A DNA stretch of 64,000 nt from assembly GCF_054482595.1 (NCBI RefSeq), contig NZ_CM137008.1; one strand, 5' to 3'. Position numbers: made by a program. The stretch's first letter is position 1. Each line of letters starts with the position of its first letter. Shown piece after piece: positions 33,201-39,200 of this stretch.

Positions 33201-36200
33201 GTACAATCAGTATTATATCTAAAACAGCGAAGAAAGCCCTGATGATTTTTATTTCTGGGATCATTTTGGTTGTTGTTTTAGGCTCTGTTCCAGAATTACG
33301 TCCGGTATGGAATACCAGTGCCGGTGTAGAACGGATGAGTATTCCAACAGCATTGCAAATCATCATGTTGACTACAGCATGTATCATTATGATGGTATGT
33401 CGGATTTCTCCATCGAAACTTGACTCAGGATCCGTTTTTAAGGCCGGTCTGGTTGGAGTTGTTGCCATATTTGGTCTTTCATGGATGATGAGTTCTTTCT
33501 TTGAAGCATGGCAAGATTTATTTAATAACACTTTCAATGATTTTCATAACCCAGTTATATTCGGTGTGATTGTGTTTGTTCTTTCTGCTGTGATTTACAG
33601 TCCCGCAGCAACTGCTGTGGCATTATTTCCTGCTGGCGTATTAATGGGATATTCGACTGAGACGCTCATAGCTTTGCTTCCGGTAACGTGCGGATCATTC
33701 ATTATTCCTGGTGGTGCACAAATTGCTTGCGTGGCGTTTGACAGAACAGGAACAACCAGAGTTGGCAAGTATGTAGTAAATCACAGTTATATGTTACCCG
33801 GTCTGATTACCGTTCTGGCTTCAACTATCTTCTGCTTCCTTTTTTCCACTATATTAGTGTAATCAGAGAAGTATTCTTACAGCTGTGTAATATTTTCTTA
33901 ATCCCCCTTCCTCAAAAACGCTGAAGGGGGCTAATTCGTCATGCCACAGTGTTATCCTCTTCATTTATTCCTTAATGTTACAGAATAACCTGCGCAATTA
34001 AGTAGGCAAAAACAACCTGGGAAATGACCATGACGAACCCAGGACGTATATAGCTATGGTTGATAACAAAGCGCCCAATTCTGGTAGTACCAGTTCTGTC
34101 AAACGCCACACAACCAATCTGATTCGCTCCGGGTATAATAAAATCACCACAAGTACAGGCAAAAATTGCAATAAGATAAGGTGCAGGAATACCCAGGGTG
34201 ACTCCTAATGGCATAATCGCAGCTACTGTCGCAGCCGGGCTCATGATCACCAGAGAAAACAAGAATACGATAAAGCCAAACAGCAAAGGCGCATCATTTA
34301 CAAGATTGCCAAAAACATTGATCAGCTCTGCCTGATAAGCATCAAAAAATGTTGCAGTCATCCACGAAACACCAAGTATTGCCACAACCCCCATCAAACC
34401 AGCACGGAACACAGAGCCACTGTTAAATTTATTGCTTGGAACTTTCCCCACAATCATGATCAATAAAGCTGCAGTCAACATAATCATCTGGATGACCATT
34501 GGGGTTGATAATCTTTTTCCATCCCACGACGGAAGAAGCTCAGTAAAAGATCCGAGAATAAGGACCAGCACGACTCCTATGGCAAAAATAGCAACCCCTT
34601 TTCTTGCACCTGGTGCAGCGACATATTCTTTTTTCTGTTCGGTGTGCATGAACTCATACTCACCTGCTGCAACACGCCTTTGAAATTCAGGATCATCTTC
34701 CAGTTCTTTACCACGCTTGTAGACTGAAAAGCTGGTAACAATTGCAGCCATAAAAAACGAAGGAAGGGCAATAGATAATATTTGCCCTAACGTGATCCCT
34801 GCATACTCATGAAGTATAGCCAGCATCCCGGCAGTTGCTGCACTCATAGGGCTGGCAGCCACTGCCACACTGGCTGCAATGACCGTTGCAGATAATGCAC
34901 GTTCTGGACGTACTTTTGCTTCAGCGGCGACTTCAGCAATAACAGGGTATAAGGAGAAAGCGACATAAGTCGTCCCACAAAATAGTGTAAATACTGAAGT
35001 TAATATTGGCGCTACAAAGGTTATCGCCTGTGGTTTCTTACGGAGTATCCGTTCTGCGACCCTGACTAAATAATCTAATCCTCCAACAGCTTGTAATATA
35101 CTGACAGCACTAATAACACAAATAATAATTAACATAGCAGTAATGGAGGGAGAGGAGGGTTTCAGTCCAAAGCCCAAAACCAATATTGCAACCCCTAACC
35201 CACCTCCAGCACCAAGCCCCATTCCGCCGTATTTTCCGCCGATTCCAATACAGGCCAGAACAATAAATAGTTGTATAAAAAATAGAGCGTCCATTTTTCA
35301 ACCTCAAAGATATTCCCGGATATAATATCCGGGGAATCTTAAACATTATAATTCTTAACTATTTTAAAAGTGATTTTGCAATCTCTATTTGTTTTTTGAC
35401 AGCATCAGGTCCGGTTCCACCATAAGACATCCTGGCCTTAATGCAAGCCTCCAGAGAAATACTTTCATAAATATCTTTTTCTATTTTATTATCAAATGTG
35501 GAGAATTCTTCCATAGTAAGCTCTTCTAACATTTTTTTATGTTTAATACAGTAATTTACTGCACTACCAACAATATGGTGAGCTTCTCTGAAAGGAATAC
35601 CTTTACGGACCAGATAATCGGCCATATCTGTTGCATTCGAGAATCCTCGAGCGGCTGCTGCACGCGTATTTTCGGCAAGGATAACCATTTTTTCGATCAT
35701 AGGTGCCATTATTCTTAAGCTGGCCTGTAGAGTATCCATTGAGTCATAGACCTGCTCTTTATCCTCGCTCATGTCTGTATTATACGCTAGCGGTATGCCT
35801 TTCATAATAGTCAGCATGGCCATCAGATTTCCATACATTCTCCCACCTTTACCACGCATTTTTTCCGCCACATCAGGGTTCTTTTTCTGCGGCATGATGC
35901 TGGATCCTGTACAGAAGTCATCAGAAAGTTCAATAAATTTAAAGTCTTGGCTAGAGAATAAAATCAGTTCCTCTGAAAGGCGAGTTAGATGCATAAAACA
36001 CATCGCTGCTGCCGCGGTGAATTCGACCATATGGTCGCGGTCACTGACAGAATCAATACTATTCTCAGTTGGCTTATCAAAACCAAGTTCACGAGCCGTA
36101 AAATTACGATCAATAGGGAATGTCGTACCGGCGAGAGCCGCTGCCCCCAAAGGGCATTCTCCCATCCGTTGATACAGATCTTCAAACCTATTCCAGTCAC

Positions 36201-39200
36201 GACGCAACATCCAGTAATATGCCATAATCCAGTGAGATAAAAGAATGGGCTGACCTGTTTGCAAATGAGTATAGCCTGGCATGATGACATTAATATTGTT
36301 TTCTGCTTTGTTAATTATTATTTTTTGCAGGTTGGTAATATCCTCTTGAATTTCACGGATAATTGCTCGCATATGCATTTTAGAATCAACAGTGGTTTGA
36401 TCATTACGACTTCGCCCCGTGTGGAGTTTACCACCAACAGGGCCAATAATTTCAGTCATCCGTCTTTCAATGGCCATATGAATATCTTCATCTACAGTAT
36501 CGAAAATGAATTGGCCGTCTTCAATTTCTTTACTTACTTGTCTCAAACCTCTAATAATTGTATTGGCTTCATCCTGTGTGATTATTCCCTGACGTCCTAA
36601 CATCGTGGCATGAACTATGCTTCCTTGAATATCAAAGGGGCATAGGCGCTGCTCCAGCGTGATAGTTGCATTATATTGTTCAACGAGTTTATTTGTTGGC
36701 ATATCAAAACGTCCGCCCCATAATTTCGTAGACATCCTCATCCTCCTGCTTATTCATAAGTAATTAGAAAAAATGTACCGGCTGGATTTAATATCAGGTT
36801 ATAAAATGATGTTGGCAATTGTCAACAAATGCGGCGATTAAATTGACTTATATTGCCATTAGTTTTAATCATTAAATCATAATGTTTGTTAATGTTTTAA
36901 TGATAAGCATGGAGATATACCTCACGTTTAACATGTTATTTGACGAGAAATATATTTAATAAATTCAATTATGCAAAAACATGAAAACAAGAGTTCAAAT
37001 GGGTCTTTGATAAAAGTCAAAAATTCTCTCTTTTCTTCTGCGTCAGATAACATCTAAGTTATCAACTCTTGTCTGGCGTCGGTTACTTTACGGTTATGAA
37101 TTATCTTATCCTAGCGATATTGAATTGATTCAAATAACAGGAAATGGTCGTAGTACAAAGGACAGAAAATGATGTTGATAGAAGTGATGGACAGCACATA
37201 AAATTATCGTAGGGTTGGCGGCGATCGTCCGGCAAATGCTATCGACGGTATTAAAACCCTGCACGAAATCGGCTTCGATACCCTCAAACTGAATGGTTGT
37301 AAAGAACTGGGGCTATTCGTGAAGCTTTTGGCAATCAGATTGAGTCTGGTCTTGATTTCCACGATTGCACCAGCGTGCTGATAGTGGTTGATAGTGAAAG
37401 CACGGATTAAAGAACTGGAACCGTATCGCGCGCTGTTTATTGAAAAGCCGGTGCTGGCGGAGCATGATGATGTGATTAAGCAGTCTGAAGAGTCAGAAAC
37501 TTACAGTTGTCTTTTAAGAGCACCTGCAGGATTGTTTCTCAGTTTCTGCCTGCTCTGGCATTACCCTATTTTTCCCATGTTGAATACGGATACGCCTGAG
37601 GACATTTTGTCTCTGTTGGGCACTCTTTGGCCTCGGGGAGTTACTGTTCGCTTACCGGATATGCCTGCCGTGCAGACCACAGGCTTACCTGGTTATTTGT
37701 TTGATCGCGTCCGGGGCCAGCGATGCGAAATAGTACGCTATGTTACCAGTGAGTTATTTGTCGGTGCGCGTCTTTGTAAATAAAGACTGGCGTTCATTGT
37801 TATGCATTGATCATTATGGCGAACAATTTACGTTTACGCGTACGTGACTATGTCATCACCCTGGCGGTACCCGTGTTCGTGACCGCCATGCTCTGTATGG
37901 CAGCGGTTATACTGTAGCGTTTTATCCTGATATGGGGTCCATCGAGTGTGTTGGCTATACCGATAGAAATTATCTTGTTAGCTTTCGTTCTGACATAACA
38001 TCATCAAATTAAACGAATTCTATTACACAACAAGGAGTGGGAGGATGAGTAATATCAGTTTGTATTGTTTGCCATATTCAGGTGGTTCTGCCGCTATGTA
38101 CTATAAATGGCGTAACGTGCTGTCGGACAATATTACTTTGAAGCCTTTAGAACCTGTGGGGAAGGGGAATGAACAATGATTTTTCCGCGAAAAAAATCCT
38201 GACGGGTGAGGATGTCCTGTGTGCGGCCGTTCACCGTATTGAGTGGTTGTTTGAGACATTTTCTTCTGTCTGTTTGTCTTTTTCCGGAGGAAAAGACTCT
38301 ACTGTGCTGCTCCATCTTACGGCCGATGTGGCTCGCAGGAAGAAACGTCGTTTCTCTGTATTATTCATTGACTGGGAAGCTCAGTACCAGTGCACAATTG
38401 CACACATTCTGAAGATGAGGGAGATGTATCGGGATGTGACGGAGACTTTTTACTGGGTGGCACTCCCCCTGACTACGGTAAACGGTGTCTCTCAGTTTCA
38501 GCCGGAATGGATATGCTGGGAACCAGGTGTGGAGTGGGTTCGTCAGCCACCAGATGACGCTATTACAGATATGTCGTACTTCCCATTTTATCGGTATGCC
38601 ATGACGTTTGAAGAATTTGTTCCGGCATTTTCTTCCTGGTTTGCCGGTAACCGGTGTGGAGTGGCAATACTGACTGGTGTTCGTGCTGATGAATCGCTCA
38701 ATCGCTTTGTGGGACTGGTGTCTCAGCGCAAACTGAGATATGCAGATGATAAACCCTGGACCACAGCGTCACCTGAAGGGTTTTATTACACCTTGTATCC
38801 GTTGTATGACTGGAAAGCTCGTGATATATGGATATATAACGCCAGAACCCGAGCTATCTACAATCCCCTGTATGACCTGATGTACCGTGCCGGCGTGCCG
38901 TTACGCAACATGCGGGTCTGTGAGCCTTTTGGCCCGGAACAGCGTAAGGGACTGTGGCTTTACCATGTTCTGGAGCCGGAAACCTGGGCCAGGATGTGTG
39001 AGCGGGTGTCGGGTGCTGCCAGCGGGGCGCTTTATGCCAATGAGAGCGGTGCCTATTTTGCCCTGCGTAAGCGTATCACGAAGCCACCTCATCATACCTG
39101 GCGTAGCTATGCGATGTTCCTGCTGGATGTGATGCCGGAAAGAACGGCAGAACATTACCGTAATAAAATTGCTGTCTACCTGCGCTGGTATCAGACGCGG

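What the first reader, a model, noticed from the sequence alone, without database searches (positions are those of the whole stretch)
33978..36741. ArgH-like C-N lyase paired with a DcuB-like transporter: candidate pathway for an N-substituted aspartate
The 460-aa lyase keeps the catalytic SS-loop (GSSIMPQKKNPDVAE) and WGGRF N-terminus of argininosuccinate lyase, yet sits 64 bp upstream of, and co-oriented with, a C4-dicarboxylate transporter rather than in an arg operon. Superfamily members release fumarate from N-substituted aspartates (argininosuccinate, adenylosuccinate, EDDS-type compounds). A lyase plus fumarate/succinate-type carrier suggests uptake and cleavage of an unidentified succinyl-amino compound to feed fumarate respiration.
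Basis: inference. Interest (0 to 1): 0.75.

Follow-up and report, generated by a model that had tools for sequence, protein, structure and literature searches.

The report
Transporter-coupled ArgH-like fumarate lyase module
A second, horizontally acquired "argininosuccinate lyase" in some E. coli belongs to a mobile lyase-plus-carrier cassette found across gut bacteria, which probably imports a succinate-adduct compound and splits it to release fumarate, rather than making arginine.

Summary
On the minus strand, a 458/460-aa ArgH-family lyase (35359-36741) lies 64 bp upstream of a co-oriented Dcu-family carrier (33978-35294). The window is an E. coli accessory island.

- **It is a paralogue.** The pair occurs in 148 of 5426 complete E. 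coli genomes and on one conjugative plasmid. The housekeeping argH is in 5425 of 5426.
- **It is part of a 4-gene cassette:** FCD/GntR regulator, Dcu2, Dcu1 and lyase. The same cassette sits at different sites in Citrobacter, and in Budvicia and Anaerosinus. The lyase-Dcu pair also occurs in Campylobacter, Photobacterium and Sutterellaceae.
- **Context separates two groups.** Among 80 related loci, 22 lyases have a nearby Dcu and 21 have a nearby ArgG. None has both.
- **The Dcu-linked lyases form one clade inside the ArgH family** (100% bootstrap).
- **The active site is split.** All catalytic and fumarate-site residues are kept. Positions near-invariant in canonical ArgH are replaced: D33E, L297K, K/R325T, Q328S and S29T (duck δ2 numbering).
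- **The carriers are neither DcuA nor DcuB** (35-37% identity to each).

Best reading: an aspA-dcuA-like catabolic module that releases fumarate from an imported succino-adduct. The substrate is unidentified, and argininosuccinate itself is not excluded. I found no literature on this clade. It is a new variant of a known kind.

The parts
35359..36741 (-). ArgH-family (class II fumarate-lyase) gene. The maximal ORF is 460 aa; the likely start is ATG 36735 (458 aa, WP_000105004.1).
   Evidence: ORF; TIGR00838, 614.9 bits; 43% identity to K-12 ArgH; Pfam PF00206 and PF14698 on the identical P0001; catalytic residues kept; S29T, D33E, L297K, K325T, Q328S.
35315..35333 (-). Hairpin between the two cistrons (CCCGGATATTATATCCGGG) in the 64-bp lyase-Dcu1 gap. 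It has no strong T-run.
   Evidence: An equivalent hairpin with compensatory changes is present in four Citrobacter loci, and a different hairpin in Budvicia.
33978..35294 (-). Dcu1, a DcuA_DcuB-family carrier of a distinct subfamily, downstream of the lyase and co-oriented with it.
   Evidence: 35-37% identity to K-12 DcuB and DcuA, but 56-62% to the carriers downstream of the lyase in Anaerosinus, Budvicia, Campylobacter, Photobacterium and Sutterellaceae.
33903..33930 (.). GC-rich hairpin (CCCCCTTC...GAAGGGGG) in the convergent Dcu1/Dcu2 gap; a likely bidirectional terminator.
32540..33862 (+). Dcu2, a second carrier of the same family (annotated start 32546), 51% identical to Dcu1.
   Evidence: orthologues at 53-61% identity in Budvicia and Anaerosinus occupy the same cassette position.
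31172..32502 (+). IS2 insertion (1331 bp, 5-bp duplication ATGTG). It interrupts the 154-bp regulator/Dcu2 divergent control region and is not part of the ancestral cassette.
   Evidence: junctions compared with SMS-3-5, L001.
30399..31055 (-). FadR/GntR-type regulator with an FCD domain, divergent from Dcu2; the presumed sensor of the cassette.
   Evidence: Regulators of the same type sit in the cassette in Citrobacter, Budvicia, Anaerosinus and several Sutterellaceae.
36798..36825 (-). Candidate sigma-70 promoter of the lyase-Dcu1 operon: TTGACA, 16 nt, TATAAC.
   Evidence: Read from the sequence. The block CATTTGTTGACAATT and the -10 region are conserved in five Citrobacter loci.
37007..37020 (-). 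FNR-like box TTGACTTTTATCAA, about 270-280 bp upstream of the lyase start. This is a weak lead only.
   Evidence: 5 matches in the window against 0.57 expected; shared only with C. werkmanii and the plasmid allele.

Best explanation
The four genes form a self-contained, horizontally mobile catabolic cassette that works like aspA-dcuA. The genes are the FCD/GntR regulator, Dcu2, Dcu1 and the ArgH-derived lyase.

1. A Dcu-type carrier imports a compound that carries a 1,2-dicarboxyethyl ('succino') group on a nitrogen, or possibly a sulfur.
2. The lyase removes that group by the standard ArgH-type beta-elimination, giving fumarate plus the free amine or amino acid.
3. Fumarate is then reduced by fumarate reductase or otherwise assimilated.
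4. Succinate or the co-product leaves through a Dcu antiporter.

The clade has replaced residues that are near-invariant in true ArgH and that line the presumed leaving-group pocket. I therefore commit to the substrate being a structural relative of argininosuccinate rather than argininosuccinate itself.

Shown here: gene order, conservation of the pairing, paralogy, clade structure, retention of catalytic residues and the clade-specific substitutions. Inferred: direction of transport, identity of the substrate, and the link to fumarate respiration.
For: **Conserved pairing**
- The lyase is immediately followed by a DcuA_DcuB carrier in Anaerosinus (Negativicutes), Budvicia, Campylobacter, Photobacterium and Sutterellaceae.
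- In the genome scan, 19 of 22 assessable loci at 65% identity or more have a Dcu 36-129 bp downstream. None of about 50 loci at 58% or less has one.

**Mobility of the cassette**
- The 4-gene cassette sits at different chromosomal sites in Citrobacter species, with no other shared neighbour.
- It is also on a conjugative E. coli plasmid.

**Separation from arginine biosynthesis**
- An ArgG-motif ORF lies within 5 kb in 0 of 35 Dcu-type loci, against at least 23 of 52 canonical loci.
- With groups defined by context alone, position 33 is E in 21 of 21 Dcu-linked loci and D in 16 of 16 ArgG-linked loci.
- Position 297 is K in 18 of 22 and L in 21 of 21, respectively.
- Position 328 is S in 18 of 22 and Q in 21 of 21, respectively.
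- E. coli keeps its own argH in 5425 of 5426 genomes. The island gene is only 43% identical to it.

**Residues and phylogeny**
- Of 72 positions at least 90% conserved in 122 canonical ArgH representatives, 65 are kept. These include S114, R115, N116, T161, H162, S283, S284, K289, N291, E296 and K331.
- The exceptions include S29, D33, L297 and Q328, plus the basic residue at 325.
- All Dcu-linked lyases form one clade with 100% NJ bootstrap. The inner clade that contains the query has 90%.

**Carriers and island context**
- The carriers co-evolve with the lyase and are equidistant from DcuA and DcuB.
- K-12 aspA-dcuA has the same lyase-then-carrier layout.
- The island also carries paralogues of aspA, dcuA, ansB, dcuC, pepT and a beta-aspartyl peptidase.
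Against: - No enzyme or transport data exist.
- The lyase scores far above the curated ArgH equivalog cut-off. Its best solved relative is a genuine ArgH (2e9f, 457 bits). It is nested within the ArgH radiation. Residual or full activity on argininosuccinate is therefore plausible.
- That S29, D33, K325 and Q328 line the arginine-side pocket rests on my memory of the duck delta2-crystallin mutagenesis and structure papers, which I could not retrieve.
- The substitutions could be a compensatory rewiring (loss of K325, gain of K297) that preserves specificity.
- Three loci of the inner clade lack the carrier: a Helicobacter, a Campylobacter MAG and a short MAG contig.
- Evidence for anaerobic regulation is weak.
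Confidence: 0.45

Rival explanations
1. Same cassette logic, but the substrate is argininosuccinate itself. A Dcu-type carrier takes up exogenous argininosuccinate, and the lyase gives arginine plus fumarate, both directly useful.
For: - It is a top-scoring ArgH by profile (614.9 bits), and its best PDB relatives are true ArgH enzymes.
- All catalytic and fumarate-site residues, and Y323, R115, N116 and D89, are retained.
- The cassette needs no further enzyme, which fits products that are central metabolites.
Against: - D33, L297 and Q328 are 98-100% conserved in canonical ArgH and are uniformly replaced in the clade.
- Argininosuccinate is much larger than any known Dcu substrate, and I know of no abundant environmental source (background knowledge).
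- Several relatives carry an adjacent EamA-type exporter, which suggests the co-product is discarded.
Confidence: 0.3
2. The lyase acts on an intracellular substrate (argininosuccinate made by ArgG, or another metabolite). The Dcu carriers only exchange the C4-dicarboxylate products (fumarate, succinate, aspartate) and do not import the lyase substrate.
For: - Characterised Dcu carriers move C4-dicarboxylates and aspartate (background knowledge).
- The carriers pass the Dcu family cut-offs.
- In one Parasutterella locus, a Tat-signal flavocytochrome c reductase lies next to the lyase-carrier set. This is compatible with fumarate export for periplasmic reduction.
Against: - The cassette moves as a unit without argG or any substrate-forming enzyme.
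- The carriers form their own subfamily that co-diverges with the lyase. That is not expected if they only carried generic C4-dicarboxylates, for which E. coli already has DcuA, DcuB and DcuC.
Confidence: 0.12
3. It is a redundant biosynthetic ArgH isozyme, a xenologue, and its position next to Dcu genes has no functional meaning.
For: The PGAP annotation and the equivalog HMM hit.
Against: - The pairing is conserved across at least five distant lineages at 36-129 bp spacing.
- It is never linked to ArgG.
- The host already has argH.
- It has its own FCD-type regulator.
- It carries clade-specific substitutions.
Confidence: 0.06
4. The enzyme runs mainly in the addition direction. It would make a succino-adduct, such as a chelator or osmolyte of the EDDS or aspergillomarasmine type, from fumarate and an amine, and the Dcu carrier would export it.
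For: Superfamily members such as EDDS lyase are reversible (background knowledge). The EDDS lyase 6g3d is a detectable relative (222 bits).
Against: - There are no biosynthetic partners.
- The context is catabolic and regulator-driven, in an island full of aspartate- and fumarate-yielding genes.
- The lyase is much closer to ArgH than to EDDS lyase.
Confidence: 0.03

Closest known systems
Argininosuccinate lyase ArgH (EC 4.3.2.1; E. coli b3960, T. thermophilus 2e9f, duck delta2-crystallin)
   Same: - Same fold family (Lyase_1 plus ASL_C2) and 43% identity to E. coli ArgH.
- Scores above the TIGR00838 cut-off.
- All catalytic and fumarate-site residues are kept.
- Phylogenetically nested within the ArgH radiation.
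   Different: - It is an extra copy beside the housekeeping gene.
- It is never next to argG and is nearly always next to a Dcu carrier and often an FCD regulator.
- It carries S29T, D33E, L297K, K/R325T and Q328S at positions near-invariant in ArgH.
aspA-dcuA of E. coli (aspartase plus aspartate/C4-dicarboxylate carrier) and dcuB-fumB
   Same: A class II fumarate-lyase-superfamily enzyme that releases fumarate, encoded directly upstream of a co-oriented Dcu-family carrier. This is the same operational logic, and the island also carries aspA/dcuA paralogues.
   Different: - The lyase descends from ArgH, not aspartase (79.5 bits on the best aspartase model against 614.9 on argH).
- The carriers are a separate Dcu subfamily.
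- There are two carriers and a dedicated FCD regulator.
EDDS lyase (Chelativorans sp. BNC1, PDB 6g3d) and the iminodisuccinate epimerase plus C-N lyase pathway of Agrobacterium tumefaciens BY6
   Same: - These are ArgH-like lyases that split N-(1,2-dicarboxyethyl) amines to fumarate (background knowledge).
- In Sutterellaceae the lyase-Dcu pair is followed by a PrpD/MmgE-family gene. Its best solved relative is IDS epimerase 2hp0 (133 bits).
   Different: - EDDS lyase is a distant relative (222 bits against 457 for true ArgH).
- The E. coli, Citrobacter, Budvicia and Anaerosinus cassettes have no PrpD-like gene.
- The sequence of the BY6 lyase was not available for comparison.
S-(2-succino) lyase (2SL) pathway for S-(2-succino)cysteine breakdown (PMC9706529)
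   Same: - A class I lyase-family enzyme releases fumarate from a succino-adduct.
- A PrpD-family gene (YxeQ) belongs to that locus.
- In Campylobacter the pair lies beside an operon encoding RidA, DcuC, a cystathionine-beta-lyase-like protein, a PurB/XcbD-like lyase and a PrpD-like protein.
   Different: - 2SL sits in yxe loci with an ABC transporter, an acetyltransferase and a deacetylase. None of these is in this cassette.
- Whether 2SL is of the ArgH type was not stated in the text I read, and no 2SL sequence was compared.

Membership tests
Argininosuccinate lyase, ArgH sensu stricto | Sequence match above the curated equivalog cut-off, with Lyase_1 plus ASL_C2 architecture | tested here: met
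   TIGR00838 scores 614.9 bits against a cut-off of 279.5. PF00206 and PF14698 are recorded on the identical protein P0001.
Argininosuccinate lyase, ArgH sensu stricto | Catalytic and fumarate-binding residues (duck delta2 numbering: S114, R115, N116, T161, H162, S283, S284, K289, N291, E296, K331) | tested here: met
   All are identical in the query and in 113 of 113 clade members.
Argininosuccinate lyase, ArgH sensu stricto | Near-invariant residues of the presumed arginine-side pocket or network (S29, D33, L297, K/R325, Q328) | tested here: not met
   The query has T, E, K, T and S at these positions. Canonical representatives have S 97%, D 98%, L 99%, K/R 100% and Q 100%. The context-defined comparison avoids circularity. 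The structural role of these positions is recalled from memory, not verified here.
Argininosuccinate lyase, ArgH sensu stricto | Genomic association with arginine biosynthesis (argG or other arg genes) | tested here: not met
   0 of 35 loci of the Dcu-linked clade have an ArgG-motif ORF within 5 kb, against at least 23 of 52 canonical loci. The window has no arg genes near the lyase.
Argininosuccinate lyase, ArgH sensu stricto | Provides the cell's argininosuccinate lyase function (sole or essential copy) | tested here: not met
   The K-12-type argH is present in 5425 of 5426 E. coli genomes. The island gene is in 148.
Argininosuccinate lyase, ArgH sensu stricto | Phylogenetic placement with characterised ArgH enzymes | tested here: inconclusive
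   It is nested in the ArgH radiation but sits in a distinct clade of Dcu-linked genes (100% bootstrap), far from the E. coli and duck enzymes (NJ tree only).
Argininosuccinate lyase, ArgH sensu stricto | Cleaves argininosuccinate to arginine plus fumarate; complements argH mutants | not testable with these tools
   Needs enzymology and genetics.
DcuA / DcuB anaerobic C4-dicarboxylate carriers (Dcu family) | Family-level profile match | tested here: met
   Against TIGR00770, Dcu1 scores 418.6 and Dcu2 406.6 bits (cut-off 331). Both also pass PRK09412.
   Identity to K-12 DcuB and DcuA is 34-37%, against 56-62% (Dcu1) and 53-61% (Dcu2) to cassette carriers in other phyla.
EDDS-lyase-type ArgH-like lyases | Closer to EDDS lyase than to ArgH | tested here: not met
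   6g3d scores 222 bits over a partial alignment, against 457 bits for 2e9f ArgH. The 500-537-aa lyases of that general type found in L010 and L036 fall outside the clade and served as the outgroup.
Lyase-carrier catabolic operon of the aspA-dcuA type | A fumarate-releasing superfamily lyase directly upstream of a co-oriented Dcu carrier, conserved across taxa | tested here: met

The most novel reading that the evidence does not exclude
The clade is a previously unrecognised family of 'succino-adduct' lyases. Its natural substrates would be fumarate-derived damage or xenobiotic products, such as S-(2-succino)cysteine, related succinated thiols, or iminodisuccinate-like N-(1,2-dicarboxyethyl) amino acids. 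The dedicated Dcu carriers would then let gut bacteria (Sutterellaceae, the Campylobacter lari group, Citrobacter, some extra-intestinal E. coli) harvest fumarate as a respiratory electron acceptor from compounds the host cannot metabolise.
Probability: 0.15. Interest if true: 0.8.

Novelty: new variant of a known kind. Interest (0 to 1): 0.6.

Why it matters
- **Annotation.** Hundreds of database entries in this clade are named 'argH, arginine biosynthetic process'. The genomic evidence says they belong to a catabolic, transporter-coupled cassette, so metabolic reconstructions of Sutterellaceae, the C. lari group, Citrobacter and some E. coli are probably wrong at this point.
- **Biology.** Fumarate respiration supports gut colonisation by enterobacteria and Campylobacter, and aspartate is the known fumarate source (background knowledge). 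A second, mobile route from an unidentified succino compound would add a new nutrient niche. The candidate is directly testable: one soluble enzyme, two carriers and one regulator.
- **Enzymology.** The clade offers a natural example of how an ArgH scaffold is re-tuned at four or five positions while the catalytic core stays fixed.

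Tried and rejected
- **Literature.** Ten full-text searches found nothing on this clade or on an ArgH/Dcu pairing. Papers on the ArgH active site could not be retrieved, nor could the C. lari comparative genomics paper.
- **Regulator operator.** The 18-bp near-palindrome TGTTGACAATTGCCAACA upstream of the lyase is not conserved in Citrobacter. Only the TTGACA half is, so I reinterpreted it as a -35 box. An 11-mer, ATTTGTTGAC(A), shared with the Dcu2 leader is only partly conserved and was left as an unproven lead.
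- **FNR control.** The box is too far upstream and is shared only with C. werkmanii and the plasmid allele.
- **Enolase-superfamily link.** MR_MLE genes near the lyase in L004 and L011, and a pseudogene fragment at about 37.2 kb, turned out to be ordinary galactonate-dehydratase-type genes. The window's homologue is a dgo operon 25 kb away. I judged this a coincidence.
- **Dcu loss.** The three inner-clade loci without a carrier (L018, L019, L025) were inspected. L019 shows a gap of about 600 bp where Campylobacter L007 has the carrier.
- **Second argH outside Enterobacterales.** I could not establish whether clade-bearing genomes there also hold a canonical argH.
- **Structure.** I did not run structure prediction. 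With 43-50% identity to solved ArgH structures it would add nothing, and the tool returns no coordinates for pocket analysis.

Full report
**1. What is in the window**

One search lists two co-oriented minus-strand ORFs. One is a 460-aa lyase (35359..36741) and the other a 438-aa membrane protein (33978..35294), with 64 bp between them. The lyase contains WGGRF and TGSSIMPQKKNPDVAE. AGGAGG directly abuts the first ATG, so the second ATG (36735; 458 aa, the PGAP start) is the likelier start.

The lyase scores 614.9 bits on the NCBIfam argH equivalog (cut-off 279.5), 69.9 bits on purB and 52.8 bits on pcaB. The membrane protein passes the Dcu family models.

Next to the pair lie three more features:
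- a second Dcu-family gene, convergent with the first (32540..33862; 51% identical to it);
- an IS2 element;
- an FCD/GntR regulator (30399..31055).

**2. Where the window comes from**

The region is an E. coli accessory island next to cobUST and the asn-tRNA cluster. It is identical to strains such as SMS-3-5 and E22.

The lyase-carrier pair occurs in 148 of 5426 complete E. coli genomes at 99% identity or more. A 97.8%-identical allele, with the same neighbours, sits on a conjugative IncFIB/IncI plasmid. The housekeeping argH is in 5425 of 5426 genomes and is only 43% identical to the island protein. The island gene is thus a foreign paralogue, consistent with about 42% G+C.

The island also carries paralogues of aspA (54% identical to K-12 AspA), dcuA (55%), ansB, dcuC, pepT, a beta-aspartyl peptidase and an orphan dcuR. 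These are all genes that yield or move aspartate or fumarate.

**3. The pairing is conserved far beyond E. coli**

The closest homologues (65-93% identity) are scattered over Citrobacter, Budviciaceae, Anaerosinus (Negativicutes), the Campylobacter lari group, Helicobacter, Photobacterium and relatives, and Sutterellaceae.

In all five lineages looked up individually, a DcuA_DcuB gene directly follows the lyase. Anaerosinus and Budvicia also have the second Dcu and the FCD regulator.

I then examined the 80 loci from the species-representative genome scan:

| Group | Identity to query | Signature | Dcu linkage |
|---|---|---|---|
| Closest relatives | 65% or more | T/S-E-T-T-G-D-K-T-S | Dcu 36-129 bp downstream in 19 of 22 assessable loci |
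| Second tier (Parasutterella, Turicimonas, Sutterella) | 57-63% | E at position 33; canonical at 297, 325 and 328 | Dcu about 1 kb away, behind an EamA exporter |
| About 50 more distant relatives | 58% or less | canonical | none has a Dcu |

An ORF with the ArgG N-terminal motif lies within 5 kb in at least 23 of 52 of the distant loci, and in 0 of 35 Dcu-type loci. No locus has both.

In Citrobacter species the same four genes sit at different chromosomal sites with no other shared neighbours. The cassette is therefore self-contained.

The scan finds only loci with exact peptide-pattern matches. It missed, for example, C. lari itself, so these counts describe a sample and not a census.

**4. 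Phylogeny**

I built a neighbour-joining tree from 75 sequences and 458 columns, with Kimura distances and 100 bootstraps. Two 500-537-aa ArgH-like lyases served as the outgroup.

All Dcu-linked lyases fall in one clade (100%). The inner clade that contains the query has 90% support. This clade is nested inside the ArgH radiation, sister to Deferribacteres sequences with the canonical signature, and far from E. coli ArgH and duck delta2-crystallin. It is a derived offshoot of ArgH, not a deep separate family like EDDS lyase (6g3d 222 bits against 2e9f ArgH 457 bits).

**5. Active site**

I compared the clade with 122 canonical representatives drawn from a 1.8-billion-protein library.

- 65 of 72 positions that are at least 90% conserved in canonical ArgH are retained.
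- The retained set includes every catalytic or fumarate-site residue I know of (duck delta2 numbering): S114, R115, N116, T161, H162, S283, S284, K289, N291, E296 and K331. It also includes D89, R238, D293, Y323 and D330.
- The exceptions are S29T, D33E, L98M, A166G, L297K, Q328S and, in about half of the clade members, F335Y (the query keeps F). The always-basic position 325 becomes T.

The two groups were defined through positions 325 and 328. I therefore repeated the comparison with groups defined by gene context alone:

| Position | Dcu-linked loci | ArgG-linked loci |
|---|---|---|
| 33 | E in 21 of 21 | D in 16 of 16 |
| 297 | K in 18 of 22 | L in 21 of 21 |
| 328 | S in 18 of 22 | Q in 21 of 21 |

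From memory of the duck delta2-crystallin work (Vallée 1999; Sampaleanu 2002), S29, D33, K325 and Q328 belong to the substrate-binding network on the arginine side, and L297 follows the charge-relay E296. I could not retrieve these papers, so this assignment is a lead and not a test.

The pattern is an untouched catalytic core with uniformly replaced, otherwise invariant pocket positions, in a clade held at 65-100% identity across phyla. That is what a change of leaving group would produce. A compensatory rewiring that keeps arginine specificity cannot be excluded.

**6. The carriers**

Dcu1 and Dcu2 are 34-37% identical to both K-12 DcuA and DcuB. Dcu1 is 56-62% identical to the carrier that follows the lyase in other phyla. 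Dcu2 is 53-61% identical to the second cassette carrier in Budvicia and Anaerosinus. They form two orthologous groups of a third Dcu subfamily that travels with the lyase. 'DcuB-like' is therefore imprecise.

**7. Operon features**

- A TTGACA-16-TATAAC promoter (36825-36798) is conserved in five Citrobacter loci.
- A hairpin without a T-run sits in the 64-bp gap (35333-35315). It is preserved with compensatory changes in Citrobacter.
- A GC-rich hairpin (33903-33930) lies between the convergent carriers.
- In this strain, IS2 (31172-32502, with ATGTG duplicated) has landed inside the palindrome GCACATTATGTGC of the 154-bp regulator/Dcu2 control region, 43 bp from the Dcu2 start. It probably alters regulation.
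- An FNR-like box (37007-37020) is statistically unusual in the window (5 matches against 0.57 expected). It is poorly placed and poorly conserved, so I give it little weight.

**8. Hints about the substrate from other contexts**

- In ten Sutterellaceae loci the pair is accompanied by a PrpD/MmgE-family gene. Its best solved relative is iminodisuccinate epimerase, followed by the B. subtilis IRG1 homologue.
- In Campylobacter the pair sits beside an operon encoding RidA, DcuC, a cystathionine-beta-lyase-like protein, a PurB/XcbD-like lyase and a PrpD-like protein.
- Parasutterella and an uncultured relative carry a second, 500-537-aa ArgH-like lyase, again with a Dcu carrier and an M20 deacylase.
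- EamA exporters recur next to the second-tier lyases and in Anaerosinus.

The recurring theme is breakdown of compounds that carry a 1,2-dicarboxyethyl group. This resembles the epimerase-plus-lyase route for iminodisuccinate (background knowledge) and the 2SL route for S-(2-succino)cysteine. These partners are absent from the E. coli cassette, so they only suggest a class of substrate.

**9. Mechanism and rivals**

The best-supported reading is an aspA-dcuA-like module (same layout in K-12). A Dcu-type carrier imports a succino-adduct, the ArgH-derived lyase releases fumarate plus an amine or amino acid, and fumarate feeds fumarate reductase while succinate or the co-product leaves by antiport.

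My probabilities:
- 0.45: the substrate is a relative of argininosuccinate rather than argininosuccinate itself.
- 0.30: the substrate is argininosuccinate.
- 0.12: the carriers move only C4 products.
- 0.06: a redundant biosynthetic isozyme.
- 0.03: a synthetic (addition) role.

**10. Novelty**

Nothing in the searchable literature describes this clade. Databases name it argH and assign it to arginine biosynthesis. It uses known chemistry and a known operon logic, but it combines a distinct ArgH-derived lineage, its own Dcu subfamily and an unknown substrate. I rate it a new variant of a known kind, with interest 0.6.

Noticed in passing
window 31172-32502: IS2 (1331 bp, 5-bp target duplication ATGTG) is inserted inside the palindrome GCACATTATGTGC of the FCD-regulator/Dcu2 divergent region. 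It lies 43 bp upstream of the Dcu2 start and its transposase genes read toward Dcu2. It may uncouple Dcu2 from its regulator or drive it from an IS-borne promoter. SMS-3-5 lacks the insertion.
   Followed up: partly
window 28695-30398: There is an orphan dcuR-like response regulator (57% identical to K-12 DcuR) with no dcuS. The 978 bp between it and the FCD regulator hold no ORF of 80 aa or more, so the sensor kinase appears to be deleted.
   Followed up: partly
window 17550-28101: The island gathers paralogues of genes that yield or move aspartate or fumarate: beta-aspartyl peptidase (17550-18611), dcuC (20197-21558), pepT (21555-22811), aspA-like (23677-25077), dcuA-like (25233-26567) and ansB-like (27055-28101). 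Together they look like an 'aspartate/fumarate supply' island.
   Followed up: partly
window 35315-35333 and L012-L016 (equivalent gaps): A hairpin in the lyase-Dcu1 intercistronic gap is conserved between E. coli and Citrobacter with compensatory base changes, and Budvicia has a different hairpin at the same place. It may act as an mRNA stabiliser or attenuator that sets the lyase:carrier ratio.
   Followed up: partly
window 19589-19877, 14049-14171, 8284-8407: Rfam finds group II intron domain remnants next to reverse-transcriptase/maturase fragments, an isrC sRNA match (150 bits) and an STnc490 match (122 bits).
   Followed up: no
window 9511-12821: This is a dgo-like D-galactonate operon copy: dehydratase (690 bits), KDPGal aldolase, a probable kinase and a GntR/FCD regulator. 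It is unrelated to the lyase cassette, although the Anaerosinus locus carries a 49%-identical dehydratase.
   Followed up: yes
window 37200-42574: Downstream of the lyase lie pseudogene debris (galactonate dehydratase, ClbP and thioesterase fragments), an IbrA/IbrB-like pair (PAPS-reductase-like 38169-39401 and a ParB-like gene with an internal stop) and a frameshifted TonB-dependent receptor. The plasmid copy NZ_AP022088.1 has the receptor and the ParB-like gene intact.
   Followed up: partly
L093 (NZ_AP022088.1 125660-145039): The whole segment is also carried on a conjugative IncFIB/IncI-gamma E. coli plasmid from wastewater. The segment runs from the TonB receptor through the lyase, Dcu1, Dcu2, FCD regulator, dcuR and ansB to the dcuA-like and aspA-like genes. 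The lyase allele there is 97.8% identical.
   Followed up: partly
L009, L020-L024, L026, L028-L030, L034: In Sutterellaceae the lyase-Dcu pair is accompanied by a PrpD/MmgE-family gene whose best solved relative is iminodisuccinate epimerase (2hp0, 133 bits). In L009 and L020-L023 it is followed by LarB/LarC/LarE-like genes.
   Followed up: partly
L010 1426-4339; L036 2729-6985; L040: A second, 500-537-aa ArgH-like lyase lineage (no WGGRF; ICSSIMPQKKNP loop) is also directly followed by a Dcu carrier and lies near an M20 ArgE/DapE-type deacylase. Sutterella sp. UMGS665 has three lyase-family genes in one locus. Sutterellaceae therefore show an expansion of Dcu-coupled lyases.
   Followed up: partly
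L007 11579-17282: In Campylobacter the pair is inserted beside an operon encoding RidA, DcuC, a cystathionine-beta-lyase-like enzyme, a PurB-type lyase and a PrpD-like protein. The PurB-type lyase's best NCBIfam hit is the CoM-pathway cysteine-adding enzyme XcbD (465 bits, below cut-off). This looks like a route for a cysteine-succinate-type adduct.
   Followed up: partly
L035 4640-6547: In Parasutterella a Tat-signal flavocytochrome c reductase and a small multihaem cytochrome lie directly upstream of the second-tier lyase-EamA-Dcu-FCD set. This hints at periplasmic reduction of the released enoate.
   Followed up: no
window 18645, 28896, 37007, 59462: FNR-consensus-like boxes (TTGAYN4ATCAA) are enriched: 5 matches against 0.57 expected. 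One lies about 90 bp upstream of the annotated start of the beta-aspartyl peptidase gene.
   Followed up: partly
L064 and L067 (Propionigenium maris): There are two canonical argH copies (51-52% identical to the query). Each is directly followed by its own argG and flanked by amino-acid ABC-transporter binding-protein genes, so the argH-argG module is duplicated.
   Followed up: no
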